Positions 15,243 to 35,379 of a DNA stretch of 64,000 nt are shown piece by piece. The first letter of the stretch is position 1. Each line of letters opens with the position of its first letter. Location of the stretch: NCBI GenBank assembly GCA_023953615.1, contig JAMLJH010000001.1:9362-73361 (forward strand), read 5' to 3'. The position numbers were made by a program, and so were the translations under genes. The stretch is from Verrucomicrobiia bacterium. GTDB lineage: Bacteria > Verrucomicrobiota > Verrucomicrobiia > Limisphaerales > JADLHS01. The notes beneath the pieces are model-generated. The model had not been told where the DNA came from. It saw only the letters and a list, made by a program, of their open reading frames with translations, and did no database searches.

Positions 15243-15300
15243 GCGGCGCGCAGCTTAAACCAAAGCCCGACGCAGAACGAAGTCTTTTCGGAGCAAACGG

Positions 15301-17038: not shown

Positions 17039-17409
17039 AATTCCTTCGCACAAAGCAGCGCCATCGCTCGCGGTCTCGACGTGGCTGGCGAACGTCTCGC
17101 GAGTACATTCGCGTTATGCCAACGCTATTCAGTTGTACTCGCCTCGCACCTTGGCTGGCTTGTGTTCCAACGAACCAATCCCCCACGTCAAGTTCAGTCT
17201 GCAAAAAATCGCATAATCGCCTCTGCCCCCGAAACCGGAAGTTGCGGGATAATTTCCAGCCCGCTAGATTGGAGCTGTGAATTCGATGACGCACCAGGAA
17301 AAGCGGGTGCTCTGCCTGATCCTGGGTTTGTTGCTCCTCGGTTGGGCGGTTAAAACCTATCGCGTGGCGTACCCGCCCGCGGCGACCGCGCATTCATCAA
17401 CTCGTTAAT

Positions 17410-17817
17410 ATGCAGGAATTACCTTTTGAAGCGATGCTGGAATTGATTCTGGCGAAGGACTCGCGTTACCAACGTGACGCATATTTGTTTGTGCGGGACG
17501 CGCTGGATTACACGCAGAAAAACCTCCGCCGAGCGAATAAGGGCGAACTCCGCCACGTGAGCGGACAGGAGTTGCTGACGGGCATTCGCCGTTACGCGCT
17601 GTCTCAATTCGGACCGATGACCATCACGGTCTTCGAGGAGTGGGGTATCCGACAGTGCGAAGATTTTGGTGAAATCGTCTTCAACATGGTGGACATCGGG
17701 TTGCTCGGAAAAACCACGCAAGACCGGCGCGAGGATTTTGCCGACGGTTATGATTTCGTGGCGGCATTCAAACACCCCTTTCTGCCGGGGAATGAAGTCA
17801 AAGTGTCGGTCGGTTGA
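17410..17817 (+). CDS. conserved hypothetical protein, Planctomycetes/Verrucomicrobia-restricted type (family name not verified)
   Basis: 135-aa ORF beginning MQELPFEAMLELILAKDSRYQRDAYLFVRDALDYTQ.... It resembles a family I recall as restricted to PVC bacteria. Confidence 0.6.
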   Translation: MQELPFEAMLELILAKDSRYQRDAYLFVRDALDYTQKNLRRANKGELRHVSGQELLTGIRRYALSQFGPMTITVFEEWGIRQCEDFGEIVFNMVDIGLLGKTTQDRREDFADGYDFVAAFKHPFLPGNEVKVSVG

Positions 17818-17880
17818 ACCCGCTCGCACCAAGTCCACACCGCCCGGGTTTCGTTCAGCAGCGTTTTAAGTTTTATCATC

Positions 17881-20466: not shown

Positions 20467-20516
20467 CTAGCCGCGCACACACGCGCAACACCATTCCCGC
20501 ATCGGAAATTCGTCTG

Positions 20517-21608: not shown

Positions 21609-21808
21609 CTTTAATCGCGAAGCCATCATGCGAAATTTTCGCCGCACTTCAATCTTCTTCAACCAGGAAGCCAGAAATGGGGTCATCTCTCGAAGACAGC
21701 AGCATTCGCCGTCAACCGGCATGGTGCGGACTCGGACTCTGGTACGTTTTCTCCTTTTTCTCGTTTTGAAGTGGCGAAACCCATCCGGACGCCGCACAAT
21801 GTTTCCGC

Positions 21809-22225
21809 ATGAGTTCACAGAACCAAACCGCGAACCCGCCGATGATCAAGCCGCGGCGAATCTTGGTAGTGGATGATGAACCATTCGTGTGCGATGCCAT
21901 CCGGATGATGCTCGCCTTTGACGGGCATCAAGTGAAAACCGCCGGGAACGCCAAGGAGGCGCTGCAAATGTTTGCGCCCGGCGAGTATGATCTCGTCATG
22001 ACCGACTACGCCATGCCCGAGATGAAAGGAGATGAACTCGCCGACGCCATCAAGGCGCTCGCGCCCCAACAACCGATCATTTTGATCACGGCGTATGCGG
22101 AAATGCTCCGCTTCGATGACGCGCCGTTGCGCAGTGTGGATTTCATCATCAGCAAACCGTTTTTGCTGGAGACGCTGCGCACGGCCATTCAGAAAACCAC
22201 CGGCGAACCGGCCGCCCCGGTTTAA
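21809..22225 (+). CDS. single-domain response regulator (CheY-like receiver)
   Basis: Motifs RILVVDDEP, DLVMTDYAMPEMKG and ILITAY. Confidence 0.85.
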   Translation: MSSQNQTANPPMIKPRRILVVDDEPFVCDAIRMMLAFDGHQVKTAGNAKEALQMFAPGEYDLVMTDYAMPEMKGDELADAIKALAPQQPIILITAYAEMLRFDDAPLRSVDFIISKPFLLETLRTAIQKTTGEPAAPV

Positions 22226-22680
22226 CCCGCAATTTTCTCGATGAAGATTCGGCGTCCATTGCCGAATCATTGCGTGAAACCGGGCCGATGGCGGAGTCGA
22301 ACCCCATCCGCTTCAGCACGTAAGATCACGACGACTACCCTCGGGATGACCAACCGCGTTCCGGGATTCCAGCAATGAGCGGTGGCCAAACAGAGACTCG
22401 ATCGCTGAACGTGGGAGAGCGATTGGTATGAATCCATTCAAGTCCGGGGTTGGGAATCCCGGGACGTCTGTGGACGTCCATTTTCAAGACTGCTGGGAAA
22501 AACCTGCCAAGCTTCGGATATGAAAGATGTCAGCAAAAGAAGGCAAGGCGTTGAAAAACCGACCTCAACGGTGATTATTTTTGAGAGAAACTCATTGATT
22601 GAAAAATGTTCGATTGGAAAAAGTTTTGCGACAGCAGCAATACTGGTGCAGCACTTGCTTGAGTTGAACCATACTTTGTC

Positions 22681-25257
22681 ATGAACTGGAAAGCTAAACT
22701 CGCCGCCTACCTGCACGATCCGCCGCACAAGCCAGTTGGCATCCAACACCATGAGCAGGAACGCGGCTCGTTTCTAAACCGTTTTGGTTTATCCTCCGAG
22801 GACATGGCCGCGTTCGAAAAATCTGCTGATTGGCAGGCTGCGGCTGCGGATCGTCTCATCTTTCCCGATCCGGCCAAGTCCAAATTACGGGTGGATTGGA
22901 AAGGAAGTTGGATGGAGTTCTGTCACCCGCTGGGAGGCGGCCGTCTCAGGGCGGGCGCATTTCCTCCCACGGCCGCACAACTGGAAATCGAAATCACCCG
23001 CGCTGTGGAAGCCGTGGCGCTCCGAGATGCCCAAGACTGGTCGGCCAAATTCATTGCTGGATGGCGGCTATGGCCGGAACTGGCTGCCCGCGAGCAAAAT
23101 CCTCACCACGCCTATCTCGTCGCCGACACGCGCATTCCCGACCACACGCTCTGGCACCATAATGCGCTGGCGGCGACCTTCACGGGGTGCAACGGGAAAC
23201 CCGCCTTTCTGTTGTTTCAGATTGGCCCGGTACAGGATTTCATTGCGCAAGCTCGGAAGACCCAGGATCTCTGGTCCGGCAGTTACTTGCTCAGCTTACT
23301 CATTGCTCAAGCCATGCTCGCGGTGGCTGATCAAATCGGGCCGGACGCCATCATTTTTCCACAACTGCGCGGCCTGCCCTTGGCGGATTTCCATTGGTGG
23401 AAGCGTGGCTACCTCGGAGATTTGAAATTTCGAGCCAGCCACCCCAACGAACTACTCACACCTAATTTACCCAACCGCTTCCTCGCACTGGTGCCGACCG
23501 ATCAAGGAACGGAACTGGCGCAAACCGCCGCCGCTGCAGTCCACCAGACCTGGAACGACATCGCCGCCAAGGTCAAAACCTTCCTGGATAAGCAACTCAA
23601 CGGTCAATGCCCTGATTGGGACCAACATTGGACCGCCCAGATCGCCCGTTTTCCCGCAGTGGATTGGGTGGTTCATCCGTGGAGCAAAACGTCGGAAGCC
23701 CTGCAATCCGCCGCTAACGGCACGCCTCCCTTACCTGGCGGTTGGCAGAAACATGCCTTGCGACAGGCTCAACGTTGGGCCGAGGAGTTTATTCCCACCA
23801 ACGAACGGGAAGCCTACGGGCCATGTTCCAACGCTGGTTTTGCTTGGGCATTACACTTCGCCACCACGGATTGGAAACTTGCCGCCGCCAAGAACGCCCG
23901 CGGTTTTGCAGCATGGCAATCAGTCGGTCGGCTCAATGCCGATGGCGTCCCCAAAGATCACTTGGATGGGCGCAATGAAGTGCTGGGCGGCCCGGACCAC
24001 GAACGATTTTGGCAAGTATTACGCGAGCGATGCCCGAAACAATTCAAGGGTTCGCAACTCTATGGCGCCTTGTCCGTGATCAAACGACTTTGGCCGGAGG
24101 TGTATTTGCCAGACACGTTAGACTTGGATTGTAAGGATCATGGTCATCCGGTGTTTCAGCCGGTCGATGCAATTGCTCAAATTGACGATGCGATTAGTAA
24201 CGACCAAGAAGGTGCGGAAACCTACTATGCCGTGCTCTGTATGGACGGTGATGATATGGGGCAGTGGATCAGTGGCAGCAAAGCCGCGCCGCTGCTGAAC
24301 AGCCTCGCTCAAGAAGCTCAAGACTATTTCCGCCGGCATTGGCAGACCGGAGAAGGTGGCCTCGCGGCGGATCAGGTTCAACGCCCGTTGTCGCCGGGTT
24401 ACCATGTCGCGATTTCGGAAGCCCTTTCCAATTTCAGTCTCTACTGTGCGGGACCCATCGTGCGGGCTTTTGGAGGGCAGCTGATTTACGCGGGCGGCGA
24501 CGACGTACTGGCCATGCTGCCGGCGCGCAACGCCTTGGATTGCGCGCAGGCACTACAACTGACTTTCCGAGGCGTCAACCCAGATCACCCAGATGCTCAC
24601 GCTTCGGAGGAGGTGAAAGCTGTTCTTGGTGGACTGTTCGACTTCCCCGCTCCCGGCTTCATTACCTGTAAGCGTGACGCGGGCTACAAGACACGCCTAA
24701 AACCCAACTGGCCCTTGCTGGTCATGGGACCGAAAGCCACAGCCTCGGTCGGCATCGCCATCGGCCATGTCCGCTCACCGATGCAGGACACCATTCAAGC
24801 GGCGCGCGAAGCCGAGCGGCTGGCCAAGGAAGTCCCGAACAAAGGCGCTTTTGCGCTGCAAGTTCTCAAGCGCTCGGGCGAAGCCGTTGGTTTTACGGCC
24901 CGTTGGTCATCCGGAGTGGTGTCGGTCTGGAGCGAATTGGAAGCTGGGATTCATGATTTGAGCGGACGGTTTGCCTACCGCTACGCCAGCTTGGTCAAGG
25001 CCCTCGTTGTCACTGGCGGCGGACCGGATGGCGCCGGCTACGCCTCCGAATGGACTGAAACGCTCCGTGAAGTCATCGAAGCCGAATTACGCCACGTGTT
25101 GATACAACAAGGCGACTTCAAAGCGGATAAGGCGCGCGAGCAAGCACAACACTGGTGTGCAATTCTCACGGAAGCTCTCAATCCACGCGACTACCTCCAT
25201 TTCTGGATGACTTGGGCCTTTATCAACCGCCTGACCAAACCCTCAACCGATGATTAG
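22681..25257 (+). CDS. cas10: type III-B Cas10/Cmr2 large subunit, cyclase (Palm) motif intact
   Basis: N-terminal AAYLHDPPHKP (Cmr2-type), first palm VLCMDGDDMGQWISG, and GGDD in IYAGGDDVLAMLPA (about 24.49 kb). Length is 858 aa. Confidence 0.9.
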   Translation: MNWKAKLAAYLHDPPHKPVGIQHHEQERGSFLNRFGLSSEDMAAFEKSADWQAAAADRLIFPDPAKSKLRVDWKGSWMEFCHPLGGGRLRAGAFPPTAAQLEIEITRAVEAVALRDAQDWSAKFIAGWRLWPELAAREQNPHHAYLVADTRIPDHTLWHHNALAATFTGCNGKPAFLLFQIGPVQDFIAQARKTQDLWSGSYLLSLLIAQAMLAVADQIGPDAIIFPQLRGLPLADFHWWKRGYLGDLKFRASHPNELLTPNLPNRFLALVPTDQGTELAQTAAAAVHQTWNDIAAKVKTFLDKQLNGQCPDWDQHWTAQIARFPAVDWVVHPWSKTSEALQSAANGTPPLPGGWQKHALRQAQRWAEEFIPTNEREAYGPCSNAGFAWALHFATTDWKLAAAKNARGFAAWQSVGRLNADGVPKDHLDGRNEVLGGPDHERFWQVLRERCPKQFKGSQLYGALSVIKRLWPEVYLPDTLDLDCKDHGHPVFQPVDAIAQIDDAISNDQEGAETYYAVLCMDGDDMGQWISGSKAAPLLNSLAQEAQDYFRRHWQTGEGGLAADQVQRPLSPGYHVAISEALSNFSLYCAGPIVRAFGGQLIYAGGDDVLAMLPARNALDCAQALQLTFRGVNPDHPDAHASEEVKAVLGGLFDFPAPGFITCKRDAGYKTRLKPNWPLLVMGPKATASVGIAIGHVRSPMQDTIQAAREAERLAKEVPNKGAFALQVLKRSGEAVGFTARWSSGVVSVWSELEAGIHDLSGRFAYRYASLVKALVVTGGGPDGAGYASEWTETLREVIEAELRHVLIQQGDFKADKAREQAQHWCAILTEALNPRDYLHFWMTWAFINRLTKPSTDD

Positions 25258-25259
25258 CT

Positions 25260-26399
25260 ATGAACCCACTACTCATTGAACCCACCGACGTTTTGTTTTT
25301 TCGCGATGCCGTGCCGATGTCCGCTGGCCAGGGCAAAGGCGCCGGGTGCCGACTGCCTTTTCCCAGTACGCTGCATGAAGCTTTTCGGGGCAGTCTATTG
25401 CGAACGTCAGGCGAAACCATCCGCAGCAAGCAAATCGAAGGTCGCCCGCGCACGGCGAGCCGCTCCGGCAACTGGCATGTGGACGGTCATGACGGCAGAA
25501 CGTTCATCGCCACCAAAGCCTATCGCTCACTGCGCACCATCGGCCCGTTGCCCTACCAGAACGGACAGTTGCGGCTGCCGGTGCCGAATGATGTTGCGCG
25601 CGCTCCCGATGGTCGCCTGTCCCGATTACAGCTCTGGCGCGATGCGGCCGTTGCCGCCCGGCAAACCGCGCCACGTCCGGCTGAATTTCGCCCGTTCTGT
25701 CTGCCGATGGCGATTACACCACCCGACAAGCATGGCCAGCTTTCCGGCTGGTGGACCACGGCTCAATACCGGGCTTACCTCGATACCGCCCGCGCACCAG
25801 GCGAGCACAAGAATAGCCCCGGCGAATTTTTCCGCCCACTGCCGACTGCAGATCTTTGGGTCGCCGAGTCGCGCGTAGGCGTGCAAATTAATCCCCGCTC
25901 GTCCGCATCCGTCGAGGGGCAGCTTTACGCCAGCAGTTATTTGCGTATGGGACAACGCACCCGCTTGGTGGCTTGGGCGGAAGTCGCTGACCCTCTACAG
26001 GCCCGCAATGGCGAGGCGAAGGCCCGTCAGCACGAGCGCGATCAACTGGCGGGGCTGGATTGGCTTTTGCTCGGCGGCGAATTTCGCCTCGCCCGCCTCT
26101 GGCACCAGACCGAAGACAGGCAGGCAATCCCTGATCCGTTGGGCGAACTTCTCTTACCGCCGGACCCGCCGTCGGGCGATGGCCCTTGTCTGCTCAAATG
26201 GATTCTCGTCACTCCGGCAATTTTTGCGCATGGCAGCCTCCCGGGCTGGTGTTGGAACGCATCCGATGGCCGCCCCCCAGGCGAAGTCCGGTTGGGCGCG
26301 TCCAAACGAAAAGCTGATCACGGACCCCTTCCCACTCGCGGCACCAATGTTGGAGCTGGACATTGTGAACCCGCATTACGAAGCGGACGGCCGCGATAA
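25260..26399 (+). CDS. cmr3: Cmr3 (Cas5-family) subunit, 3' end apparently disrupted
   Basis: N-terminus LIEPTDVLFFRDAVPMSAGQG...PFPSTLHEAFRGSLL, central LLLGGEFRLARL, and ILVTPAIFAHGSLPGW. After about 26280 the frame reads as Arg/Gly-rich junk until the stop. Confidence 0.8.
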   Translation: MNPLLIEPTDVLFFRDAVPMSAGQGKGAGCRLPFPSTLHEAFRGSLLRTSGETIRSKQIEGRPRTASRSGNWHVDGHDGRTFIATKAYRSLRTIGPLPYQNGQLRLPVPNDVARAPDGRLSRLQLWRDAAVAARQTAPRPAEFRPFCLPMAITPPDKHGQLSGWWTTAQYRAYLDTARAPGEHKNSPGEFFRPLPTADLWVAESRVGVQINPRSSASVEGQLYASSYLRMGQRTRLVAWAEVADPLQARNGEAKARQHERDQLAGLDWLLLGGEFRLARLWHQTEDRQAIPDPLGELLLPPDPPSGDGPCLLKWILVTPAIFAHGSLPGWCWNASDGRPPGEVRLGASKRKADHGPLPTRGTNVGAGHCEPALRSGRPR

Positions 26400-26949
26400 G
26401 CGAAATCTCACCCCAAACGCTTTCCTCTGTGTTGAGCCGGGCATCATCTGGCGCTTCGTGTTCTTCGTCCGCGCCGGCGCACCAGATGCCACTAAACTGA
26501 AAGAACAAACGCAAACTTGGATTAAGGATACGCTAACCCAAACCGGTATCGGTGCCAAAACTGCAGCGGGCTATGGTCGCTTTCGTCTCCCTACTAAAGA
26601 CGATCGAACCGCTCAGGAAAAACGTCAGCATGAGGTGGACGCGGCTCAAGTCAAGGCCGCGGAGCAGGCCAAGTTGGAAGCGGAAAAAGCCAAGCTACGC
26701 GATGAGGCTCAAGCAAAAACGAAGCATGACTATCCCAACCCAGCTTCGTTCAAAAATCTGGTGCTTGATAAACTGAACCCCGGTCAGCTCGAGCAACTCC
26801 GCAATCAAATTCCTGCGCTGCAAAAACCGGAAAATGAATCCTGGCGCGAGGAATTGAAGCAACGGCTGGCCTCCCGTGACTACAAAGACATCCGCAAACG
26901 CCTCCGGGGGAAAGACTGGTTCCCCCCGGATTGGTTGCCGCCACAATAA
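26266..26949 (+). CDS. Cmr6-like RAMP C-terminal fragment plus ~120-aa charged helical tail (possible pseudogene remnant or fusion partner of cmr3)
   Basis: Frame +1 relative to cmr3. It contains KLITDPFP, LELDIVNPHY, PNAFLCVEPGIIWRFVFFV and GIGAKTAAGYGRF, matching the C-terminal half of Cmr6 as I recall it. No Cmr6 N-terminal half is present. The start codon is uncertain (ATG 26266 or 26347). Confidence 0.6.
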   Translation: MAAPQAKSGWARPNEKLITDPFPLAAPMLELDIVNPHYEADGRDKRNLTPNAFLCVEPGIIWRFVFFVRAGAPDATKLKEQTQTWIKDTLTQTGIGAKTAAGYGRFRLPTKDDRTAQEKRQHEVDAAQVKAAEQAKLEAEKAKLRDEAQAKTKHDYPNPASFKNLVLDKLNPGQLEQLRNQIPALQKPENESWREELKQRLASRDYKDIRKRLRGKDWFPPDWLPPQ

Positions 26950-26958
26950 CACCGCGCC

Positions 26959-27786
26959 ATGCAACTGAAATTCCAAGAATACAAGTTTACCCTGCTCACC
27001 CCCTGCTTCAGCGGTACGGCGTTGGGCAAGTACGGTGACCATGCCGAAATGCGGATTCCCCCCATCCGCGGACATGTTCGTTTCTGGCATCGGGCATTGT
27101 TCGGCGCGAACGACGCGAACCGTATTTGGGGCAGCGCCAGCGGTAATGAAGGACAAGGCAGCCGGGTGGCGCTCCGCTTTGTCGGTTCGGTGCCCAGCAA
27201 ACACGCCCATCCCAAAGCCACCACGCTGCCGCACAAGGATAATCCGGGCCAGCGTGGGCCGCGCCCCGCTTTGGCGGCCGGCGAATCGTTCACCCTTCAC
27301 CTGCAACGCTTGGTCGGCTGCACCCACGATGACTGGGATCACGCCCGACGCGCCGTCAAACTTTGGTTGCTCCTTGGCGGCCTCGGGCTGCGTGCCAACC
27401 GCGCTGCCGGCAGCGTGTGGCCTTTGCCGTCCGGAGGTTGGGACAAACCGCCAGCGACCCGAGAGGAGCTCAAGCAAACCCTGAGAGATATTGGCTGCCG
27501 CTGGCCCGTCAGTTTGATCGGAGAAAATGCAGAAAAGGACGCAACGGAATTGCGGGAGGTCGCATCAGACACGGTCAACAATGCAGAATACTTTGGTTCT
27601 GCCGGCAGGGATCGTAAACCGTCCCCCACCAAATTCAAAGTGATCCGCCTGGGATCAGCCTGCTGTTTGTTGGCCACCGCTCCGCGCGCTGACAACCACT
27701 CCAGCCCACTCCCCGGTGCCCATGCTCTCTTGAAGGATAAATTCCGCTGGAAAGCGCTCGGCGAATGGCACCCTTTACTCCCATGA
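26959..27786 (+). CDS. cmr1: Cmr1-like RAMP protein
   Basis: YKFTLLTPCFSGTA...MRIPPIRGHVRFWHRALFG and LWLLLGGLGLRANRAAG (G-rich loop). Confidence 0.75.
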   Translation: MQLKFQEYKFTLLTPCFSGTALGKYGDHAEMRIPPIRGHVRFWHRALFGANDANRIWGSASGNEGQGSRVALRFVGSVPSKHAHPKATTLPHKDNPGQRGPRPALAAGESFTLHLQRLVGCTHDDWDHARRAVKLWLLLGGLGLRANRAAGSVWPLPSGGWDKPPATREELKQTLRDIGCRWPVSLIGENAEKDATELREVASDTVNNAEYFGSAGRDRKPSPTKFKVIRLGSACCLLATAPRADNHSSPLPGAHALLKDKFRWKALGEWHPLLP

Positions 27787-27947
27787 AATCTCGTTTGCCT
27801 GATCCCTCGTGGCCGCCGCCATGGGCCCTGACTGGAAAGCCAACCCTCAATGGTCTGCTGCGCATTCAGACACCGACCGACCGGCGCATCTCCAAACGTC
27901 CACTTTATTTTTGACAAAACTCTGATGTTCCAACCTATACCCAAGTT

Positions 27948-29138
27948 ATGAAAACACAGCTCTGCTTGCTCAGTGGCGAATTGATGCCCAACGTTATTGG
28001 CGTGCTGCATTCGGGCGTCCGACAGGTGCTGCCCATTGTCAGCCGTGAATCCGCGGCCCAGGTGGATAGTTTCCGGCAGACACTGGCTGCCACCGGCAAT
28101 CCGGTAACCGTACTCGACCCTGTCACGGTGCTGCCGTTTGATCCTGCGGACTGCCGAAACACTCTCAGTCAAGCCATCGGAAACCATCCAGATTTGGAAA
28201 TCAATTGGACCGGTGGAACCAAGATCATGAGCTACGCCGTCCGCCAGCTGGCGGAAAAACACGGACTTCCCGCCTTGTACGTCAATACCAATGGTCGGGA
28301 AATCCTCCGCGAAAATCCCGCCGACGGCAGCGTACGGTCCGAGATGATTGATACGGCGCGACTGGGGTTAAACGTGTTGACCCATATTCTCGCCGCCGGG
28401 CATACGGTCGAAGGAGGGGAGTCGCTGGAGGCCTTTCGCACCCGCTGTACGCCCGCTCCCGAACTGGTTCAAGCGGCCACCCTCATTCTGGATGCCCGGC
28501 CATCGGAACGTTATGAATTGCGTGAACTGGCAAAAGCTGATCGCGCCGCTTTCCAACCACAACAACTGAACGCCGATTTTCTCAAGGCGCTGACCCAGGC
28601 CGGTCTGATTGAGCCCGCTGCGGATGCGGGAAAATTCTTCCTCGCGCATACCACCAAACTCCATCCGTTCCATCGGCAGAGTCCTGAGGAGCAAAATGCT
28701 ATTTTCCTGCGCAGCACTTATCTTGAAGTTTTCTTGTGGTCGCAGATTAAGGAGCGCAGCGCGATCGAAGACGTCGCCTGGCATGTCGCGCTCAATCCCG
28801 GCGTTCGGGGCCGTGCTGCTGAACTGGACGTTGCCCTGGCTCACGAAGGGCGTTTCGTGGTGTTGGAATGCAAACAACACTTGGACCTGAAAGAGCTGGC
28901 GAAGGTGATTGAAGAGCAGGCGGCTCGGACCCGTCGCATCGGGCGATTATTTGGACGCTGGATGCTCTATATTCATCATTCGCGGGCGGAATACGATGCC
29001 CCCGGATCTGACGCCATTATTGCCAGTCAGGCAGCCAGAGCTGCTGACTACGGCGGCAAACTACTTTGGCACGACGATCTAAAAGATCTGCCGGTCACGG
29101 TCGCCTCTTTTCTTAACGAAGGTCGGCTCACGCTTTGA
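27948..29138 (+). CDS. can2: Can2/Card1-family effector: N-terminal CARF domain plus C-terminal PD-(D/E)xK nuclease
   Basis: CARF hallmarks LSGELMPNV and INWTGGTKIMS. The nuclease motif is ELDVALAHEGRFVVLECK (D..E.K). Confidence 0.75.
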   Translation: MKTQLCLLSGELMPNVIGVLHSGVRQVLPIVSRESAAQVDSFRQTLAATGNPVTVLDPVTVLPFDPADCRNTLSQAIGNHPDLEINWTGGTKIMSYAVRQLAEKHGLPALYVNTNGREILRENPADGSVRSEMIDTARLGLNVLTHILAAGHTVEGGESLEAFRTRCTPAPELVQAATLILDARPSERYELRELAKADRAAFQPQQLNADFLKALTQAGLIEPAADAGKFFLAHTTKLHPFHRQSPEEQNAIFLRSTYLEVFLWSQIKERSAIEDVAWHVALNPGVRGRAAELDVALAHEGRFVVLECKQHLDLKELAKVIEEQAARTRRIGRLFGRWMLYIHHSRAEYDAPGSDAIIASQAARAADYGGKLLWHDDLKDLPVTVASFLNEGRLTL

Positions 29139-29150
29139 TATGGGAAAATC

Positions 29151-29393
29151 ATGACCCTCGACGTTTCCACTCTCTACGTCGCCACCGGCACCGCCAAATT
29201 GGCCGATCTGCCCGCTTACGAAGCCCGTGTGCGTGAACTCGTTCCCCCCGGTGCGGACGTAACTCTCACCGGCCCGGGACCGGTCTGGCTTTACCTCCGT
29301 CTCGCCCACCGGCTGCATGGTCGCGTCCGCATCCTGACCTACACCAGTCCCGTTAGCGGCCCCGTCGAGATTTTCAACCATAACCCCGGTTGA
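29151..29393 (+). CDS. csx3: Csx3-like protein (Crn3-type cA4 ring nuclease candidate)
   Basis: 80 aa. LTGPGPVWLYLRLAHRLHGRVRILTYTSPVSGPVEIFNHNP fits my remembered Csx3 pattern G-x-G-P-x-W-L...H..H...P..G.V.....H. Confidence 0.6.
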   Translation: MTLDVSTLYVATGTAKLADLPAYEARVRELVPPGADVTLTGPGPVWLYLRLAHRLHGRVRILTYTSPVSGPVEIFNHNPG

Positions 29394-29396
29394 ATC

Positions 29397-30641
29397 ATGA
29401 AGACCGAACGCAAACCCCGTGCCCGCGCGAAGTCCAATCTGGCCGGCAAACCTCCGGCCCGGTCACTTCCCGCCGACACCAGAAAGCCTGACGTGAAATC
29501 ACGAGCGGTGTTGCTCGCGGTCATGGGCACCTCCCCGGCCATTCTCACCGAAACGGTCTGGGCCTTGGCCCAAGGCGATGACCGGCACCCGCCCGTCATT
29601 CCCGACGAAGTCGTCGCCATCACCACCTGCCAGGGACGGGACAAAATCAACGCGCAATTGCTCGCGTCGCCGCCGGACGGGAGCGGGCAAAGCATCTGGC
29701 AATCCCTCCGGCGGACGCTATTGGGCGCCGACGCGGTGGCGGAACCCCGGCTCACACTCCGGATCGAGGTCATCGCGCGCCCGGCCCCGCTGACCGGACA
29801 GCTCACGCTCCTGACGGATATTCTGACCCTCGAAGACAACCTGGCGGCGGCCGAATTCATTTTCCAACACGTCCGCGCCCATGTCAGTGCCGACGATACC
29901 CGACTCATCGCCTCGCTGGCAGGCGGGCGCAAAACCATGAGTTCCCTGCTCCACGCCACCTTCAGCCATCTGGCCCGACCGCAAGACCGCTTGACGCACA
30001 TTTTGGTGAACGAACCGTTTGATGGCGCCGTCCAGCCGCTATTTTTTTATCCCGGCCAACCCCAGCAGAAACTGACGGATCGAGGTGGAAAAGTGTGGAC
30101 TGCTCGGGACGCGCGGCTGCTGCTGGCCGACGTACCCTTTGCGCCCATGCGCCTGCGGTTTCCTGACATTGAGAAAATCCCCATGCGTTTCCACACGCTG
30201 CTGAAAACCTACTCGGAAACCTGGCAGCGCGACGCCACCGAACCCGCGCGCATCGAGCTGCACCACACGCCCCCACGCGTGGTGGTGGATGGTCTCAGCG
30301 TGGAACTCGAAAGCGAACGCCAACTCACCGTCATCCAGTTTCTGCTGCGGGCCAACCGAGAGAGATGGGTGCAAAAGAACCAGGACGAAGCGCTGGCTAT
30401 CTTCAAGGCCACGCATGGGTACCCACCGGAATCGGGCAACGTACCCCCGGCGTTAAAGGCCACCCTTGAGAAACTCTCCGCCGCAGGTCAAAAAAAGCCG
30501 GGTCCCGAATGGATCAAAAACGCAACCACGGACGACATCAAACGTCCATTGAGCTACTGGCGGCGCCTTCTCGAGAAAAAGGGCAGCCGCTGGGTGCCTC
30601 CCAAGCGTGACTTGCGCTTTCCTCCCTTCGAATTGGTGTAG
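29397..30641 (+). CDS. NE0113/TIGR02584-like CARF (CARF7-type) protein with ~185-aa C-terminal extension
   Basis: LLAVMGTSPAILTETVWAL, VVAITT and SLAGGRKTMS motifs. The C-terminus carries PRVVVDGLSVELESERQLTVIQFLLRAN (winged-helix-like pattern). Confidence 0.65.
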   Translation: MKTERKPRARAKSNLAGKPPARSLPADTRKPDVKSRAVLLAVMGTSPAILTETVWALAQGDDRHPPVIPDEVVAITTCQGRDKINAQLLASPPDGSGQSIWQSLRRTLLGADAVAEPRLTLRIEVIARPAPLTGQLTLLTDILTLEDNLAAAEFIFQHVRAHVSADDTRLIASLAGGRKTMSSLLHATFSHLARPQDRLTHILVNEPFDGAVQPLFFYPGQPQQKLTDRGGKVWTARDARLLLADVPFAPMRLRFPDIEKIPMRFHTLLKTYSETWQRDATEPARIELHHTPPRVVVDGLSVELESERQLTVIQFLLRANRERWVQKNQDEALAIFKATHGYPPESGNVPPALKATLEKLSAAGQKKPGPEWIKNATTDDIKRPLSYWRRLLEKKGSRWVPPKRDLRFPPFELV

Positions 30642-30715
30642 GTCCGCGAGCCACCGTCACTACGACGTCCCCGGACGTCCACCAGCGCGACAACTTTATC
30701 CCGGTCGTTTACTCT

Positions 30716-30934
30716 ATGCACATGAAAAAAATAGCTTTAAGCTCATTTTCGAACAACTGGCCGAACCGTATTGAAATCGTCCTGCGCATCAGCGTGCTGG
30801 TTCTTTTGATCACCATGCTGATCAAACTGATGCTTCTGCCAAGCCTAACCCTCATAATGAGTCTGGCGGTAATGACCATCCTCGCGTCCGCCGTTTCCGG
30901 CATCTTGCGTGAATTGCGGCGGTGGCGGTCCTGA
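30716..30934 (+). CDS. hypothetical 72-aa protein with two predicted TM helices, in a lower-GC patch
   Basis: Sequence MHMKKIALSS...IEIVLRISVLVLLITMLIKLMLL...LTLIMSLAVMTILASAVSGIL..RELRRWRS. No family was recognised, and it could be non-coding AT-rich DNA. Confidence 0.4.
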   Translation: MHMKKIALSSFSNNWPNRIEIVLRISVLVLLITMLIKLMLLPSLTLIMSLAVMTILASAVSGILRELRRWRS

Positions 30935-30947
30935 ACGGCTCCACCAC

Positions 30948-31994
30948 ATGCCCACGCTCATCCTCAACCAAGCCCGCTGTCGGGTCGCCTTGATTTCCGA
31001 ACGGCTCGAGATTCTCAGTCCGTCGCTGGGAGAGCCGGATGCCGAACCCGAGCGCCGCACCGTGTCGCTCCTGGATGTGGAACGGGTAGTGGCGGGGGAG
31101 AACACGCATTTCACTCCGGCAGCTTGGGCGGAAATGTTGCGACGCCAAATTCCCATTCAGTTGTTCGCCTGGAACGGTCGCTTCCTTGGTGGTTTTCTGC
31201 CTGCCCAAAACCAACACGGTCTCTCCCGTCTGCGACAGTACCAACGCACTACCGATCCCGCCTTTGCCTTGCAAATGGCCGGTCGGATTATCGCCGCCAA
31301 AATTTATAATCAACGCCGCGTGATCCAGCGACTTCGAGCCAATCGCACTTTGACACAATCCACACCGGCCACCCCGGCAAATTCGGACCCCGGTCAGGCG
31401 ACCCTCGCCTGGCTGGACACCAGCCTCGCACAAGCCGCCCGGGCTCGTTCCCTCGGGGAACTGCGCGGTCATGAAGGCGCGGCCACTGCCCGATATTTTC
31501 AAGCTTGGGCGGACTGCCTGCCTGCGGCGTTCCCTTTTGAACAACGCAGCACCCGTCCTCCCTTGAATCCGGTCAACGCCTGCATCTCCTTTGGTGCCAC
31601 CTTGCTTTATCACGAAGCCGTTGCTTTTATCCACGCACACGGGCTGGATCCCGCCCTTGGCCTCCTGCACGCCACCGAAAACGGACGCTGGTCACTCGCC
31701 TTGGACCTCATCGAACCCTTCCGTCCCGTTCTGGTGGAAGCGCTGGCGCTGGATCTGTTCAGCCATCAAATTCTGAACACCTCGCATTTCGATGCCCGCG
31801 ACGGTGGCTGCTACCTCAATGAAGCCGGCCGCAAGAAATTCTTCTTCCAATACGAACGCCGCATGGAACGGCAATTCCTCAGTGAATGCGTTGGCCACCG
31901 CACCACCCTGCGCCAACAACTCGAACATCAAGCCGTACAATTCAAAAGCGCCTTGGATCAACCCGAAAAATTTGAACCCTTCCTCATGAATTGA
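30948..31994 (+). CDS. cas1: CRISPR-associated endonuclease Cas1
   Basis: Motifs LRGHEGAATARYF, NPVNACISFGATLLYHE and GLLHATENGRWSLALDLIEPFRP. The likely start is MPTLILNQ at 30948 (track GTG 30909). Confidence 0.9.
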   Translation: MPTLILNQARCRVALISERLEILSPSLGEPDAEPERRTVSLLDVERVVAGENTHFTPAAWAEMLRRQIPIQLFAWNGRFLGGFLPAQNQHGLSRLRQYQRTTDPAFALQMAGRIIAAKIYNQRRVIQRLRANRTLTQSTPATPANSDPGQATLAWLDTSLAQAARARSLGELRGHEGAATARYFQAWADCLPAAFPFEQRSTRPPLNPVNACISFGATLLYHEAVAFIHAHGLDPALGLLHATENGRWSLALDLIEPFRPVLVEALALDLFSHQILNTSHFDARDGGCYLNEAGRKKFFFQYERRMERQFLSECVGHRTTLRQQLEHQAVQFKSALDQPEKFEPFLMN

Positions 31995-32025
31995 AACTCC
32001 ACCTCCAAACACAGATACCGGCTGC

Positions 32026-34137
32026 TGGTCCAACGCCCTCGATGCCGAAAGGCATTGGAGACATCGCTCTTGGTTATAGGTGCCGAAGCCAGCTTGCGAG
32101 GGGCAGAACGCCCTCGATGCCGAAAGGCATTGGAGACCGAAGATTTGGAAGCGCTTGTCTTTGCGGTTCAGGAAGGGGCAGAACGCCCTCGATGCCGAAA
32201 GGCATTGGAGACAAAGCTTTTGAGGGGTGAACCAAGTCCCGTTGATTACTGGGCAGAACGCCCTCGATGCCGAAAGGCATTGGAGACATTTGGTTAAGGC
32301 ATGGGACATGCTCGAAGAACGCAAGAGGGGCAGAACGCCCTCGATGCCGAAAGGCATTGGAGACTTCTTGAATTCCAACCCCAGGGCGATGCGGTCTAAG
32401 CCCGGGCAGAACGCCCTCGATGCCGAAAGGCATTGGAGACTTGCCTTTGGCGTTTGACGCCATGCGGGTGACAATCCAGGGGCAGAACGCCCTCGATGCC
32501 GAAAGGCATTGGAGACTTAAGATTTTCTCGACAGCCTCACGTAGAGGCTTGGGGGGGCAGAACGCCCTCGATGCCGAAAGGCATTGGAGACTCCCTCCAT
32601 CAGGACTTTATTGACAGCCTCACGTAGAGGGCAGAACGCCCTCGATGCCGAAAGGCATTGGAGACCAGTTCCGCCCGCACCTTGGCTATCGTCTTGTCGT
32701 CCAGGGCAGAACGCCCTCGATGCCGAAAGGCATTGGAGACAGAGACTTGGGCAATTCAACGTTCACCTTGCTAAAGGTGAGGGCAGAACGCCCTCGATGC
32801 CGAAAGGCATTGGAGACTCACCAGATCAAGCGCGTGTTCTTCCATTCGTAAGACGGGCAGAACGCCCTCGATGCCGAAAGGCATTGGAGACGCATTTTGT
32901 CGCGTAGTGCCTCCACATCGCTAGCCGCGTGGGCAGAACGCCCTCGATGCCGAAAGGCATTGGAGACAACCGTGTCCCCCGGGAAAGGAATCTCTTAGCC
33001 GGGCCAGGGGCAGAACGCCCTCGATGCCGAAAGGCATTGGAGACAAGCTCTTGGGTAGTTCAACATTCACCTTGTGAAAGGTTGGGCAGAACGCCCTCGA
33101 TGCCGAAAGGCATTGGAGACGTCTTTTCAATGGCGACCAGGTATTGTTTGCCCGAGATGGGGCAGAACGCCCTCGATGCCGAAAGGCATTGGAGACTTCG
33201 CTTGGTTTGTTTGTTAGTGGCAAGCTGCGAGCGAGGGCAGAACGCCCTCGATGCCGAAAGGCATTGGAGACCCCGCGCCGCTTCAATTTGCTCACGTCAA
33301 TATCACCCGGGGCAGAACGCCCTCGATGCCGAAAGGCATTGGAGACTTGCTCATTTCAGCAGGGCATTGATGCGCCGTAGTTCGGGGCAGAACGCCCTCG
33401 ATGCCGAAAGGCATTGGAGACAAAAGATTTGCGGTTTGCCGTTCACGTCCCGCATATTGCGGGCAGAACGCCCTCGATGCCGAAAGGCATTGGAGACCGC
33501 GCACTCAATTAGCGGGGTCATATTATCCTTTCGTGGGCAGAACGCCCTCGATGCCGAAAGGCATTGGAGACGTTTGAGCGCGACGTTTGAAGCCGTCGTT
33601 ACTCCCCACGGGCAGAACGCCCTCGATGCCGAAAGGCATTGGAGACCAGCGCCGCGTCCGCTTCCATCTGCGCCAAAACGCGCGGGGCAGAACGCCCTCG
33701 ATGCCGAAAGGCATTGGAGACTAAAACGTGCCGCCTCCCCAAGTTTCTTGTAGCCAACACGGGCAGAACGCCCTCGATGCCGAAAGGCATTGGAGACGAA
33801 CCCGTAAGAAACACCATGTTTAATAGACTGTATGCTTCGATGTTCCACGATTGTTTATCTTTTCTGACCAAGGGCAGAACGCCCTCGATGCCGAAAGGCA
33901 TTGGAGACTTCAGTTTCCCGCCGGGTAAGTTTTAGCAATTCGGATTTGGGCAGAACGCCCTCGATGCCGAAAGGCATTGGAGACATGTAGGCTTCGGTGC
34001 TCGCCAGCTTTTCCAAGATTTTGGGCAGAACGCCCTCGATGCCGAAAGGCATTGGAGACGGAAAGGCCCGTGTAGCGTCCCACCAGATCCAGGATCTCCG
34101 GGGCAGAACGCCCTCGATGCCGAAAGGCATTGGAGAC
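32026..34137 (+). CRISPR. CRISPR array with 28 repeats of 37 nt (GGGCAGAACGCCCTCGATGCCGAAAGGCATTGGAGAC) and 27 spacers (26 of 37-41 nt, one of 74 nt)
   Basis: Repeats were located by eye at 32026, 32101, 32176 ... 34101. The first repeat deviates at 4 of its first 6 nt; all others are identical. Plus orientation is inferred from the hairpin TGCC-GAAA-GGCA followed by an 8-nt TTGGAGAC tail. Confidence 0.97.
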
Positions 34138-34164
34138 CACCAGGCCCTCCTTTCTATCTCGTCA

Positions 34165-34410
34165 CCGCCTGAAGGCGGGACTACGAACCAAGTTGCCTTC
34201 GCTGCCTGAAGGCGGGACTACGAACCCAACGCATCCCCCCGCCTGAAGGCAGAACTACAAACGAAACACCTCCTCCGCCTAAAGGCGGGACTACGAACCA
34301 AGTTGCCCTCGCTGCCTGAAGGTGGAACTACAAACATTCCTGCTGCTCGTAGTCCTGCCTTTAGGCAGATTGAACTTTCTCTTGTTGTTCGTAGTCCCGG
34401 CTTCAGCCGG
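34165..34410. repeat. cluster of 7 REP-like hairpin units (CYGCCTGAAGGCRGGACTACGAAC): 5 direct with 36-37-nt period, 2 inverted
   Basis: Direct units are at 34165, 34202, 34239, 34275 and 34312. Inverted units are at 34346-34369 and 34387-34410. Each has a CCGCC-TGAA-GGCGG type stem-loop. Confidence 0.85.
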
Positions 34411-34521
34411 AATTACAACCATCCGGCCGGGCGGTTCCGCATTGCTTCCGTTCGCGTGAAATTCCACTATGTTCACGGTGGTAAAAGTGACCAGCGACAA
34501 ACTAAAAATCCGATAAACACC

Positions 34522-35379
34522 ATGAAAATAAAATTGATGACAACAACCCTGGCGGCAGCCATTGGTTTCAGCTTCGCTCCCGCGAGCTTTGCGCAAGCCC
34601 CGAAGGTGGATTTCCCGGCGCCCAGCCCGACGTCCACGCTGAAGCAGCGCGTCGGTCTGACGGACATTGAAATTGTATATTCGCGTCCGGGAGTAAAAGA
34701 TCGCGAAATTTTCGGCGGCCTCGTGCCTTACGGCAAGGTCTGGCGCACGGGCGCGAATAGCGCGACGCGGATTTCATTCAGCACGGATGTCAAATTGAAC
34801 GGACACGATGTGCCTGCGGGAGCGTACGAACTGTTCACCATTCCCGATGAAAATGAATGGACCATCATCATCAACAAGGGCACGGGGCAATGGGGCGCGT
34901 TTCAATATGACGAAAAACAGGATTTCCTGCGCTTCAAAGTCAAGCCACGGCAACGCGCGCGTTCCGTGGAAACATTCACCATCGGCATCAGCAACATCCG
35001 GGACGAATACGCCACCATCAGTCTGGCTTGGGATAAAACCAGCATTCCGATCAAATTCGAAGTGGATTTAACTTCCAAACTCGTTCCACAAATCGAGGCC
35101 GCCATGGCCGCGCCCGATGGCAAGAAACCTTACTTCCAAGCCGCGACGTTTTATTACAATCACGGGCTTGATTCACAAAAAGCCTTGAAGTGGGTTAATG
35201 CTGCCGTCGCCGAAAATGAAGCGCATTACATCGTGCATTTGAAGGCCAAGGTTCTGGCGCGTCTCGGTGACAAAGCGGACGCCATCGCCGCCGCGAAACG
35301 CTCGAAGGAACTGGCCATCGCCGCCAAGGACTTCGGCTTCGTCAAGCTGAACGATGATTTGATCGCCAGCCTGCAGTAA
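34522..35379 (+). CDS. DUF2911 domain protein with signal peptide and C-terminal TPR-like helical region
   Basis: Signal peptide MKIKLMTTTLAAAIGFSFAPASFAQ, plus GKVWRTGANSATRISF..VKLNGHDVPAGAYELFTIP..EWTIIINK. Confidence 0.75.
   Translation: MKIKLMTTTLAAAIGFSFAPASFAQAPKVDFPAPSPTSTLKQRVGLTDIEIVYSRPGVKDREIFGGLVPYGKVWRTGANSATRISFSTDVKLNGHDVPAGAYELFTIPDENEWTIIINKGTGQWGAFQYDEKQDFLRFKVKPRQRARSVETFTIGISNIRDEYATISLAWDKTSIPIKFEVDLTSKLVPQIEAAMAAPDGKKPYFQAATFYYNHGLDSQKALKWVNAAVAENEAHYIVHLKAKVLARLGDKADAIAAAKRSKELAIAAKDFGFVKLNDDLIASLQ

What the first reader, a model, noticed from the sequence alone, without database searches (positions are those of the whole stretch)
22681..34137. Type III-B-like CRISPR-Cas island with a cyclase-competent Cas10 but no Cas7 backbone, Cas11, Cas6 or Cas2
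The island encodes cas10/cmr2 (GGDD intact), cmr3, a Cmr6 C-terminal fragment, cmr1, three cOA-signalling accessory genes, cas1 and a uniform 28-repeat array. In all six frames I could not recognise cmr4 (the crRNA-binding, target-cleaving backbone), cmr5/cas11, the N-terminal half of cmr6, cas6 or cas2. There are two readings. One is a recently crippled III-B locus that still keeps a large, perfectly homogeneous array and an intact signalling module. The other is an effector built from far fewer parts than any described III-B complex, possibly borrowing Cmr4-6/Cas6/Cas2 in trans. The Cas10 N-terminus has LHDPPHK (Cmr2-type), and I cannot judge HD nuclease competence.
Basis: partly seen in the sequence, partly recalled or inferred. 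Interest (0 to 1): 0.7.

Follow-up and report, generated by a model that had tools for sequence, protein, structure and literature searches.

The report
Recently deleted, broken type III-B CRISPR locus
This is an ordinary six-subunit type III-B (Cmr) CRISPR-Cas locus of an uncultured Verrucomicrobiota bacterium that two very recent small deletions have broken, because the same strain in other public datasets still carries the complete locus.

Summary
The window has cas10/cmr2, cmr3, a cmr6 3' remnant, cmr1, three cOA-signalling accessory genes, cas1 and a homogeneous array. It has no cmr4, cmr5, cmr6 5' half, cas6 or cas2.

The cause is simple. A Logan contig from another sequencing run (L029) is 100% identical to the window on both sides. 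It carries cas10-cmr3(456 aa)-cmr4-cmr5-cmr6(392 aa)-cmr1-...-cas1-cas2.

- **Deletion 1.** The window lacks 2,179 bp between two copies of TTCCC (junction 26329-26333). This frameshifts Cmr3 after residue 358 and leaves Cmr6 residues 189-392 without their own start. The same junction is assembled in 7 contigs from other runs, so it is not a mis-assembly.
- **Deletion 2.** This one is seen only in the window. It removes cas2, the leader and the first 9 nt of a repeat (junction AAC, 32032-32034).
- **Other alleles.** Two other independent deletions occur in the same clone elsewhere: 1,278 bp (cmr3::cmr4) and 4,311 bp (cas10 to cmr6).
- **cas6.** It is absent from the flanks fetched for all 26 related loci, so its absence is a lineage trait.

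The 'recently crippled' reading is right and the 'minimal effector' reading is not supported. This is ordinary locus decay. The recurrent deletions hint at selection against the effector, and that is the only mildly interesting point.

The parts
22681..25257 (+). cas10/cmr2, intact, 858 aa. HD dyad H12-D13, DGDD 521-524, GGDD 605-608.
   Evidence: TIGR02577 at 2.2e-66, plus Pfam Cmr2_N and palm2. Matches solved Cmr2 structures 9l7c and 4w8y. Motifs conserved in 20 Cas10 proteins of this lineage. DNA 100% identical to the intact-locus allele L029.
25260..26399 (+). cmr3, truncated. Native codons 1-358 end at 26333. A 21-codon out-of-frame tail follows, with the stop at 26397-26399. The intact protein is 456 aa.
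   Evidence: Pfam Cas_Cmr3 at 2.1e-25, covering profile 2-282 of 367. The alignment with P0001 (456 aa) is identical up to ...DHGPLP and then diverges.
26329..26333 (.). Junction of deletion 1: the single remaining copy of a 5-nt microhomology, TTCCC. 2,179 bp are lost: the cmr3 3' end, cmr4, cmr5 and the cmr6 5' half.
   Evidence: L029 1-8154 equals window 18180-26333, and L029 10329-16046 equals window 26329-32046. Sequences across the junction were read. The same junction is in L027, L028 and L033.
26335..26949 (+). cmr6 3' remnant, residues 189-392 of 392. It has no native start; the first in-frame ATG is at 26347.
   Evidence: TIGR01898 at 2.4e-15, profile 98-194 of 195. Lineage HMM positions 186-391 of 391. 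PADLOC Cmr6 at 5.3e-16. Coordinates worked out.
26959..27786 (+). cmr1, intact, 275 aa.
   Evidence: Lineage HMM at 5.9e-106. PADLOC Cmr1 at 2.2e-12. Pfam RAMPs.
27948..29138 (+). CARF4-PD(D/E)xK nuclease, Card1/Can2-like. Putative cOA-activated effector.
   Evidence: PADLOC CARF4--CARF_PDDEXK at 1.5e-28, full length. Pfam CARF_Card1 at 30.2 bits and Card1_endonuc at 25.4 bits, just under its 26.4 cutoff.
29151..29393 (+). csx3, 80 aa. Putative ring nuclease.
   Evidence: Pfam Cas_csx3 at 25.5 bits against a cutoff of 21. PADLOC Csx3 at 1.4e-13.
29397..30641 (+). CARF5 / NE0113-family protein, 414 aa. The C-terminal ~150 aa are unassigned.
   Evidence: TIGR02584 at 1.1e-49. PADLOC CARF5 at 5.6e-56.
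30716..30934 (+). 72-aa ORF of unknown function between the CARF5 gene and cas1.
   Evidence: Called as a gene in all Logan alleles. No significant family hit.
30948..31994 (+). cas1, intact, 348 aa from the ATG at 30948.
   Evidence: TIGR00287 at 2e-68 and Pfam Cas_Cas1 at 4e-77. The exact protein is on 16 Logan contigs.
32032..32034 (.). Junction of deletion 2: AAC microhomology. cas2 (91 aa), the 194-nt leader and the first 9 nt of a repeat are lost. The loss is at least 696 bp and probably includes one or more repeat-spacer units.
   Evidence: L027 is identical to the window up to 32034. It then continues with 696 nt that hold cas2 (Pfam CRISPR_Cas2 at 1.6e-20) and the leader before its first repeat.
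32035..32062 (+). 5'-truncated repeat: the last 28 of 37 nt.
   Evidence: Sequence read directly.
32063..34137 (+). CRISPR array: 27 spacers (26 of 37-41 nt and one of 74 nt) and 27 identical repeats GGGCAGAACGCCCTCGATGCCGAAAGGCATTGGAGAC.
   Evidence: Repeat scan and TRF. The repeat folds with a 3' hairpin, -18.3 kcal/mol, z = -4.8. The 3' half GCCGAAAGGCAWTGGAGAC is shared, with single-base variants in two arrays, by the arrays of 5 relatives.

Best explanation
This is a canonical type III-B (Cmr) CRISPR-Cas locus of an uncultured Verrucomicrobiota bacterium that two recent deletions have inactivated.

**Ancestral locus (shown).** It is still present in the same clone in other datasets. Gene order is cas10-cmr3-cmr4-cmr5-cmr6-cmr1, then the CARF4-PD(D/E)xK nuclease, csx3, the CARF5 (NE0113) gene, orf72, cas1, cas2, the leader and the array.

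**Deletion 1 (shown).** It removed 2,179 bp between two TTCCC pentamers. It took out the last 98 codons of cmr3, all of cmr4 and cmr5, and the first 188 codons of cmr6. It joined the remainders out of frame.

**Deletion 2 (shown).** It runs between an AAC downstream of cas1 and the AAC inside a repeat. It removed cas2, the leader and at least the first 9 nt of a repeat.

**Consequences (inferred from established type III-B biology).**
- Without the Cmr4 backbone, Cmr5, full Cmr6 and a complete Cmr3, no crRNA-guided complex can assemble.
- Target RNA can therefore no longer switch on the Cas10 cyclase or the HD domain.
- The Card1-like nuclease, the CARF5 protein and the Csx3 ring nuclease are left without their signal.
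- Without Cas2 and the leader, no new spacers can be added.
- The array is a frozen relic. At most it is transcribed by read-through from cas1.

**Why the array is so uniform (shown).** The intact and deleted alleles differ by zero substitutions over about 13.9 kb. There has been no time for the rest of the locus to decay.

**cas6 (shown).** The absence of cas6 is a trait of the whole lineage, not damage.
For: - **Isogenic intact allele.** L029 is 100% identical to window 18180-26333 and to 26329-32034. It carries Cmr3 of 456 aa, Cmr4 of 314 aa (PADLOC 1.6e-59), Cmr5 of 121 aa (1.1e-13), Cmr6 of 392 aa (4.8e-31) and Cas2.
- **Junction anatomy.** The junctions and their microhomologies were read directly.
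- **Deletion 1 is reproducible.** The exact 379-aa truncated Cmr3 is on 7 contigs from other sequencing runs, and the junction is identical in L027, L028 and L033.
- **cas2 and leader exist in a sister strain.** They are present in the otherwise identical L027.
- **Conserved synteny.** The order cas10-cmr3-cmr4-cmr5-cmr6-cmr1-CARF genes-cas1-cas2 recurs across the 26 related Verrucomicrobiota loci wherever the contig extends far enough.
- **Nothing hidden in the window.** Lineage HMMs find no Cmr4, Cmr5 or Cas2 anywhere in its six frames.
- **Independent alleles.** Two other deletions exist in the same clone: 1,278 bp in frame, Cmr3(1-243)::Cmr4(209-314), and 4,311 bp from cas10 codon 378 to cmr6 codon 59.
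Against: - Deletion 2 was seen only in the window. I could not confirm it in an independent assembly. All 16 Logan contigs with the identical Cas1 that extend far enough still have cas2.
- Only 64 kb of the genome is visible. A second Cmr module or a cas6 elsewhere cannot be ruled out, and two relatives (L003, L012) do carry two Cmr modules in tandem.
- No expression or activity data exist.
Confidence: 0.93

Rival explanations
1. The remaining Cas10, Cmr1 and accessory proteins still work. They borrow Cmr3, Cmr4, Cmr5, Cmr6, Cas6 and Cas2 from a second CRISPR-Cas locus elsewhere in the genome, so the array is still used.
For: Two relatives (L003, L012) have two Cmr modules side by side. Cas10, Cmr1, the accessory genes and cas1 carry no mutation relative to the intact allele. 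Sharing of Cas6 and the adaptation module between co-resident systems is well established for type III.
Against: No second set of Cmr genes is in the 64-kb window. The deletion also destroys Cmr3, which is the partner of Cas10. The leader is gone, so normal array transcription and spacer acquisition are compromised. Zero substitutions mean that the intactness of the remaining genes says nothing about selection on them.
Confidence: 0.05
2. One or both junctions are assembly or consensus artefacts, or minority variants, in a mixed population that mostly carries the intact locus.
For: Intact and deleted alleles of the same clone coexist across public runs, including within one run series: SRR12908314 is intact and SRR12908348 has the 4.3-kb deletion. 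Deletion 2 is unique to the window.
Against: Junction 1 is assembled identically in 7 contigs from several runs. The junction overlaps are 5 nt and 3 nt. That is far below any assembler k-mer, so neither junction can arise from repeat collapse (inference). Junction 2 lands inside a CRISPR repeat and keeps the downstream array in register.
Confidence: 0.07
3. The deletions are not neutral decay. They were selected because an active type III-B effector was costly in this strain, for example through self-targeting, targeting of a useful mobile element, or toxicity of the cOA response.
For: There are three independent deletions in one clone. Each removes all or part of cmr4 and each reached assembly consensus. 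The accessory and adaptation genes are untouched in all 16 Cas1-bearing contigs. With random placement inside the 12-kb island, all three would overlap cmr4 with a probability of roughly 0.05 (my own rough calculation from the sizes).
Against: No spacer matches the window outside the array, and the rest of the genome was not available. The runs may not be independent cultures. My way of finding alleles, through Cmr3 and Cas1, favours seeing effector deletions. Relaxed selection together with microhomology-mediated deletion would give the same picture.
Confidence: 0.35

Closest known systems
Canonical type III-B (Cmr1-6) systems, e.g. Pyrococcus furiosus Cmr (Cmr2 structure 4w8y) and the Cmr2 of 9l7c
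   Same: The same six-subunit gene set and order are present in the intact allele L029. Cas10 has Cmr2_N and palm2 domains with the DGDD and GGDD motifs and an N-terminal HD dyad.
   Different: The window's copy lacks cmr4, cmr5, half of cmr6 and the 3' end of cmr3. Cas10 has a shorter N-terminal region (about 145 aa before the Cmr2_N block, against about 210 in 9l7c and 4w8y). No cas6 is linked.
Synechocystis sp. PCC 6803 CRISPR3, subtype III-Bv, matured by RNase E and RNase J without Cas6 (PMC12464536; Behler et al. 2018 as cited there)
   Same: It is a III-B locus with its own array and no associated cas6. This is a precedent for Cas6-independent crRNA maturation.
   Different: No evidence here for which nuclease processes the repeat. 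The Verrucomicrobiota repeat has a strong 3' hairpin followed by ...TTGGAGAC, as expected for a classical 8-nt tag. Per the paper read, RNase E cleaves the Synechocystis CRISPR3 repeat to leave 13-14-nt handles. Homology of the Cmr proteins to the III-Bv set was not tested.
Loss-of-function deletions in type III CRISPR-Cas loci under self-targeting or cost (from my own knowledge: described for Staphylococcus epidermidis type III-A and other systems)
   Same: Small deletions remove effector genes or spacers while leaving the rest of the locus. Multiple independent alleles occur in one lineage.
   Different: Here the selective agent is unknown, and selection itself is not shown.
Card1/Can2 cA4-activated nucleases and Csx3/Crn3 ring nucleases
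   Same: The domain architectures match: CARF plus PD-(D/E)xK, and an 80-aa Csx3 fold family.
   Different: Sequence matches are weak to the Pfam models; Card1_endonuc is just below its cutoff. The ligand and the activity are untested.

Membership tests
Type III-B (Cmr) CRISPR-Cas locus | Cas10 of the Cmr2 type (Cmr2_N and palm domains) | tested here: met
   TIGR02577 at 224.8 bits against a cutoff of 79.4; Pfam Cmr2_N and palm2.
Type III-B (Cmr) CRISPR-Cas locus | Cmr3 (Cas5-like partner of Cas10), full length | tested here: not met
   The family is recognised, but the gene is frameshifted after codon 358 of 456. It is full length in the isogenic allele L029.
Type III-B (Cmr) CRISPR-Cas locus | Cmr4 (Cas7 backbone and target RNase) | tested here: not met
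   No hit in six frames of the window, best E = 2.7. Present in L029 with PADLOC Cmr4 at 1.6e-59.
Type III-B (Cmr) CRISPR-Cas locus | Cmr5 (Cas11 small subunit) | tested here: not met
   No hit in six frames, best E = 1.8. Present in L029 with PADLOC Cmr5 at 1.1e-13.
Type III-B (Cmr) CRISPR-Cas locus | Cmr6, full length | tested here: not met
   Only residues 189-392 remain.
Type III-B (Cmr) CRISPR-Cas locus | Cmr1 | tested here: met
   Lineage HMM at 5.9e-106 and PADLOC Cmr1 at 2.2e-12. The TIGR01894 score of 23.5 is below its 28.65 cutoff.
Type III-B (Cmr) CRISPR-Cas locus | Descent from, and synteny with, complete III-B loci | tested here: met
   An identical-flank allele has all six cmr genes. 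The gene order recurs across the 26 relatives wherever the contig extends.
Functional adaptation module | Cas1 plus Cas2 plus a leader next to the first repeat | tested here: not met
   Cas1 is present. Cas2 and the leader are deleted relative to L027.
Cas6-independent III-Bv-like system | No cas6 associated with the locus | tested here: met
   No Cas6 family hit in the island. No Cas6 family is among the listed top hits, and no defence family is matched by two or more of the 88 unassigned ORFs from the 26 related loci.
Cas6-independent III-Bv-like system | crRNA maturation by a housekeeping RNase (RNase E/J) | not testable with these tools
   This needs RNA-seq or biochemistry. The rest of the genome, where a cas6 could lie, was not available.
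Card1/Can2 cOA-activated nuclease | N-terminal CARF plus C-terminal PD-(D/E)xK nuclease domain | tested here: met
   PADLOC CARF4--CARF_PDDEXK covers residues 1-390 at 1.5e-28. Pfam CARF_Card1 is above its cutoff and Card1_endonuc is 1 bit below.
Csx3/Crn3 ring nuclease | Csx3 domain | tested here: met
   Pfam Cas_csx3 at 25.5 bits against a cutoff of 21; PADLOC Csx3 at 1.4e-13. Catalysis not tested.

The most novel reading that the evidence does not exclude
The same environmental clone has lost its Cmr effector at least three separate times, through different microhomology deletions that all hit cmr4, while keeping its cOA-signalling and adaptation genes. If positive selection drove this (autoimmunity, or the cost of an active type III-B system in reactor or natural populations), these public time-series datasets would show selection for CRISPR loss in a wild population. 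Separately, this whole Verrucomicrobiota III-B lineage has its own cas1-cas2 and arrays but no linked cas6. It may therefore use a host RNase for crRNA maturation, as Synechocystis III-Bv does.
Probability: 0.3. Interest if true: 0.45.

Novelty: new member of a known kind. Interest (0 to 1): 0.22.

Why it matters
The apparent minimal type III-B effector would have been remarkable, but it is an ordinary complete Cmr system caught just after it was deleted. This is a warning against reading novel architectures into single loci without comparing sister alleles.

The residual value is modest:
- The locus gives base-exact examples of microhomology-mediated loss of cas genes, with the ancestral allele in hand.
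- Three independent effector deletions in one clone could be used to study the cost of type III immunity in natural or reactor communities.
- It documents a Verrucomicrobiota III-B lineage with Card1-like, Csx3 and CARF5 accessory genes and no linked cas6.

Tried and rejected
- **Self-targeting.** All 27 spacers were run with blastn-short against the window with the array masked. Only chance matches of 15 nt or less were found.
- **Spacer targets.** Two conserved cores from related spacer pairs were searched in IMG/VR viral contigs, with 0 hits. I ran no further search on this.
- **Other arrays with this repeat.** The exact 37-nt repeat gave 0 hits in genome contigs and 0 in metagenome contigs.
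- **Rfam.** A scan of 21800-34700 at E up to 0.1 found no family, including the CRISPR-DR families.
- **Sample identity.** A full-text search for six SRR accessions found 0 papers, so the nature of the samples is unknown.
- **Whole-window PADLOC and Pfam through a pseudo-alignment.** I supplemented it with individual Pfam scans of Cas6-sized ORFs.
- **First estimate of junction 1.** The tblastn result suggested about 26287-26297. This was wrong, because the Cmr3 of this sub-lineage has an extra segment (GASKRKADHGPLP). The true junction, 26329-26333, came from the 100%-identical allele.
- **Rejected: a small ORF as a degenerate Cas2.** orf72 (30716-30934) has no Cas2 signal.
- **Rejected: the 74-nt spacer hides a degenerate repeat.** No repeat similarity within 4 mismatches was found.

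Full report
**What is in the window.** On the + strand, 22681-34137 holds these features:

- cas10/cmr2, 22681-25257, 858 aa.
- cmr3, 25260-26399, a 379-aa ORF.
- An overlapping ORF (26008-26949) whose last ~200 residues are the C-terminal half of Cmr6.
- cmr1, 26959-27786.
- A CARF4-PD(D/E)xK protein of the Card1/Can2 type, 27948-29138.
- An 80-aa Csx3, 29151-29393.
- A CARF5/NE0113 protein, 29397-30641.
- A 72-aa ORF of unknown function.
- cas1, 30948-31994.
- A CRISPR array ending at 34137.

These assignments come from NCBIfam, Pfam and PADLOC. The flanks are chromosomal housekeeping genes, including a peptidase M16, a PfkB kinase, a response regulator and a DUF2911 protein.

**The missing genes are really missing.** I fetched 26 related loci with the Cas10 protein. 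Nearly all are Verrucomicrobiota MAGs, with 46-74% Cas10 identity. Where their contigs extend, they share the order cas10-cmr3-cmr4-cmr5-cmr6-cmr1, then one to three CARF effectors (Csm6, Card1-like, CARF-adenosine deaminase), sometimes csx3, then an NE0113 gene, cas1 and cas2.

I built HMMs from their Cmr4 (21 sequences), Cmr5 (14) and Cas2 (3) and searched them without filters against the six-frame translation of the whole 64 kb. They find nothing better than E = 0.86. The Cmr6 HMM matches only with its positions 186-391 of 391. tblastn with the proteins of L001, whose Cas10 is 70% identical, agrees.

No Cas6 family appears for any island ORF. The island has no unassigned gap large enough for a cas6. 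The Cas6-sized ORFs elsewhere in the window are housekeeping genes, apart from two with no Pfam hit.

**Why they are missing: an isogenic intact allele exists.** A search with the window's Cmr3 returned P0001, a 456-aa Cmr3. It is identical to the window's protein up to ...KADHGPLP (residue 358) and then continues with a normal Cmr3 C-terminus, whereas the window's protein runs into 21 unrelated residues and a stop.

The contig that encodes P0001 is L029 (Logan assembly of SRR11577119). It lies in the same chromosomal context and carries cas10 (858 aa), cmr3 (456), cmr4 (314), cmr5 (121), cmr6 (392), cmr1 (275), the same three accessory genes, orf72, cas1 and cas2. PADLOC confirms the three extra genes as Cmr4 (1.6e-59), Cmr5 (1.1e-13) and full-length Cmr6 (4.8e-31).

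At the DNA level, L029 1-8154 equals window 18180-26333 at 100%. L029 from 10329 onward equals the window from 26329.

- The 5 nt TTCCC (26329-26333) occur at both ends of the missing segment in L029 and once in the window.
- The deletion is 2,179 bp.
- It ends Cmr3 exactly after codon 358 and resumes in the third base of Cmr6 codon 188, so the joint is out of frame.
- The three mismatches that BLAST reported near 32035-32046 are an over-extension past the second junction. Up to 32034 the two alleles have no substitution at all.

**It is not a mis-assembly.** The exact 379-aa truncated Cmr3 is encoded on 7 Logan contigs. The two shown come from different runs (SRR32031695 and SRR32031698). L027, L028 and L033 have the identical junction. 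A 5-nt overlap is far shorter than any assembler k-mer, so it cannot cause a collapse; this last point is my inference.

**A second deletion explains the missing cas2.** L027 is identical to the window from 15260 to 32034. It then continues for 696 nt that the window lacks: the spacer after cas1, a 91-aa Cas2 (Pfam CRISPR_Cas2, 1.6e-20), a 194-nt leader and the first 9 nt of a repeat.

In the window...GGTCCAAC is joined directly to GCCCTCGATGCCGAAAGGCATTGGAGAC, the last 28 nt of a repeat. The trinucleotide AAC is shared by both sides. The base after L027's first repeat (C) differs from the base after the window's truncated repeat (A). Either some leader-proximal units went with the deletion, or the arrays differ there.

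The array therefore consists of one truncated repeat (32035-32062) and 27 perfect 37-nt repeats, with 27 spacers. I found this second junction only in the window. Every one of the 16 Logan contigs with the identical Cas1 that reaches that far still has cas2. This junction is therefore less well supported than the first.

**More alleles in the same clone.**
- P0003 (348 aa; L032 and L034, from SRR12234141) is an in-frame fusion of Cmr3 residues 1-243 to Cmr4 residues 209-314. A 1,278-bp deletion with a 2-nt overlap (TG) made it.
- L036 (SRR12908348) has a 4,311-bp deletion from cas10 codon 378 to cmr6 codon 59, with a 3-nt overlap (TAC).
- Intact alleles are in SRR11577119, SRR16642439 and SRR12908314.

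All are 100% identical outside the deletions. The effector operon of one clone was thus hit at least three times independently. Each hit removed all or part of cmr4, and the accessory and adaptation genes stayed intact in all the contigs seen. This may reflect selection against an active effector. My rough estimate is that three randomly placed deletions of these sizes in the 12-kb island would all overlap cmr4 about 5% of the time. My search route also favoured finding such alleles, and the runs may not be independent. I rate selection at about one in three.

**Cas10.** The protein is untouched, being identical to the one in the intact allele.
- It aligns to solved Cmr2 structures 9l7c and 4w8y.
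- Across 20 full-length Cas10 proteins of this lineage, the two cyclase motifs are conserved: YYAVLCMDGDDMG (DGDD 521-524) and LIYAGGDDVLAM (GGDD 605-608).
- The N-terminal LHDPPHK is conserved too. H12, D13, H24, D50, D57, H82, D149, H155 and H160 are each at least 90% conserved.
- The HD domain therefore looks under constraint in the lineage, but its activity cannot be judged from sequence.

None of this matters in the window's strain, because Cas10 has lost its complex.

**cas6.** None of the 26 related loci has a recognisable cas6 within the flanks fetched (up to 10 kb each side). Among 88 unassigned ORFs of 170-380 aa from those loci, no PADLOC family is hit by more than one member, and no Cas6 family is among the listed hits. 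That listing is capped at 25 families.

The repeats of five relatives share, with single-base variants in two of them, the 3' half GCCGAAAGGCAWTGGAGAC. The window's repeat folds into a stable 3' hairpin followed by a short tail (-18.3 kcal/mol, z = -4.8). This is the classical substrate shape for hairpin-directed cleavage that leaves an 8-nt tag (UUGGAGAC).

Either a cas6 elsewhere in these genomes serves the locus, or a housekeeping RNase does. The second option has a precedent in the Cas6-less III-Bv system of Synechocystis, which RNase E and RNase J mature (PMC12464536). This cannot be decided here.

**How it works, or worked.** In the intact allele, by analogy with characterised III-B systems (established knowledge, not tested here):
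1. The crRNA-loaded Cmr1-6 complex binds complementary RNA.
2. Cmr4 cuts that RNA.
3. Cas10 is switched on to make cyclic oligoadenylate.
4. The signal activates the Card1-like nuclease and probably the CARF5 protein.
5. Csx3 degrades the signal.

In the window's allele, steps 1-3 cannot occur. The signalling genes are orphaned, and Cas1 has neither Cas2 nor a leader. The array's perfect uniformity reflects how recent the damage is, not continued function.

**Organism.** A membrane protein in the window (49798-51066) is 97% identical to one in the MAG Verrucomicrobiota bacterium AS-MESO-3CA.116. The next best genomes are at 75% or less. No GTDB representative genome, that MAG included, gave a Cas10 hit above 74%. 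The island is therefore probably variable even among close relatives, or it was not binned.

**Verdict.** The 'recently crippled' reading is proven to the base. The 'reduced effector' reading is not supported. This is a new but ordinary member of type III-B in a decayed state, and interest is low. The recurrent deletions and the cas6-less lineage are minor leads.

Noticed in passing
window 34165-34410: The intergenic region between the array and the DUF2911 gene holds a cluster of about 8 copies of a 25-nt element, CCGCCTGAAGGCGGGACTACGAACC. It consists of a 5-bp hairpin with a conserved tail, spaced about 37 nt apart, and two copies are inverted. The element occurs nowhere else in the 64 kb (0 expected by chance). 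It looks like a REP-type element rather than a CRISPR.
   Followed up: partly
window 33798-33871: One spacer is 74 nt, about twice the usual 37-41 nt, with no repeat-like sequence inside. It could be two spacers joined by precise loss of a repeat, or an aberrant acquisition.
   Followed up: no
window 32517-32554 with 32592-32628, and 32741-32780 with 33045-33083: Two pairs of spacers are related. One pair shares GACAGCCTCACGTAGA. The other pair differs at 5 of about 33 positions. This suggests repeated acquisition from variants of the same target. Neither core has an exact match in IMG/VR.
   Followed up: partly
L032 10001-11047; L036 1-2002: Two further independent deletion alleles of the same clone occur in other sequencing runs. 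One is an in-frame Cmr3(1-243)::Cmr4(209-314) fusion (1,278 bp lost). The other is a 4,311-bp deletion from cas10 codon 378 to cmr6 codon 59.
   Followed up: yes
L003 1-9800 and 9971-17527; L012 about 650-9000 and 9947-18400: Two related Verrucomicrobiota loci carry two Cmr modules in tandem.
   Followed up: no
L018 16878-18713 (also L014, L015, L020): Some relatives carry a CARF(NE0113)-adenosine deaminase fusion (Cad1-like) in the accessory slot; others carry Csm6 (CARF-HEPN). The accessory module therefore varies within this lineage. In L007 a 355-aa ORF sits directly before cas1. It may be the source of the reverse-transcriptase hit (1.4e-53) seen among the relatives' ORFs, but one search does not say which ORF matched.
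   Followed up: partly
window 30716-30934: A 72-aa ORF between the CARF5 gene and cas1 is called as a gene in every allele of this clone but matches no family. It is not conserved in the more distant relatives.
   Followed up: partly
window 54-261: A 96-nt tandem repeat, 2.2 copies at 91% identity, lies at the very start of the window, inside a small ORF.
   Followed up: no
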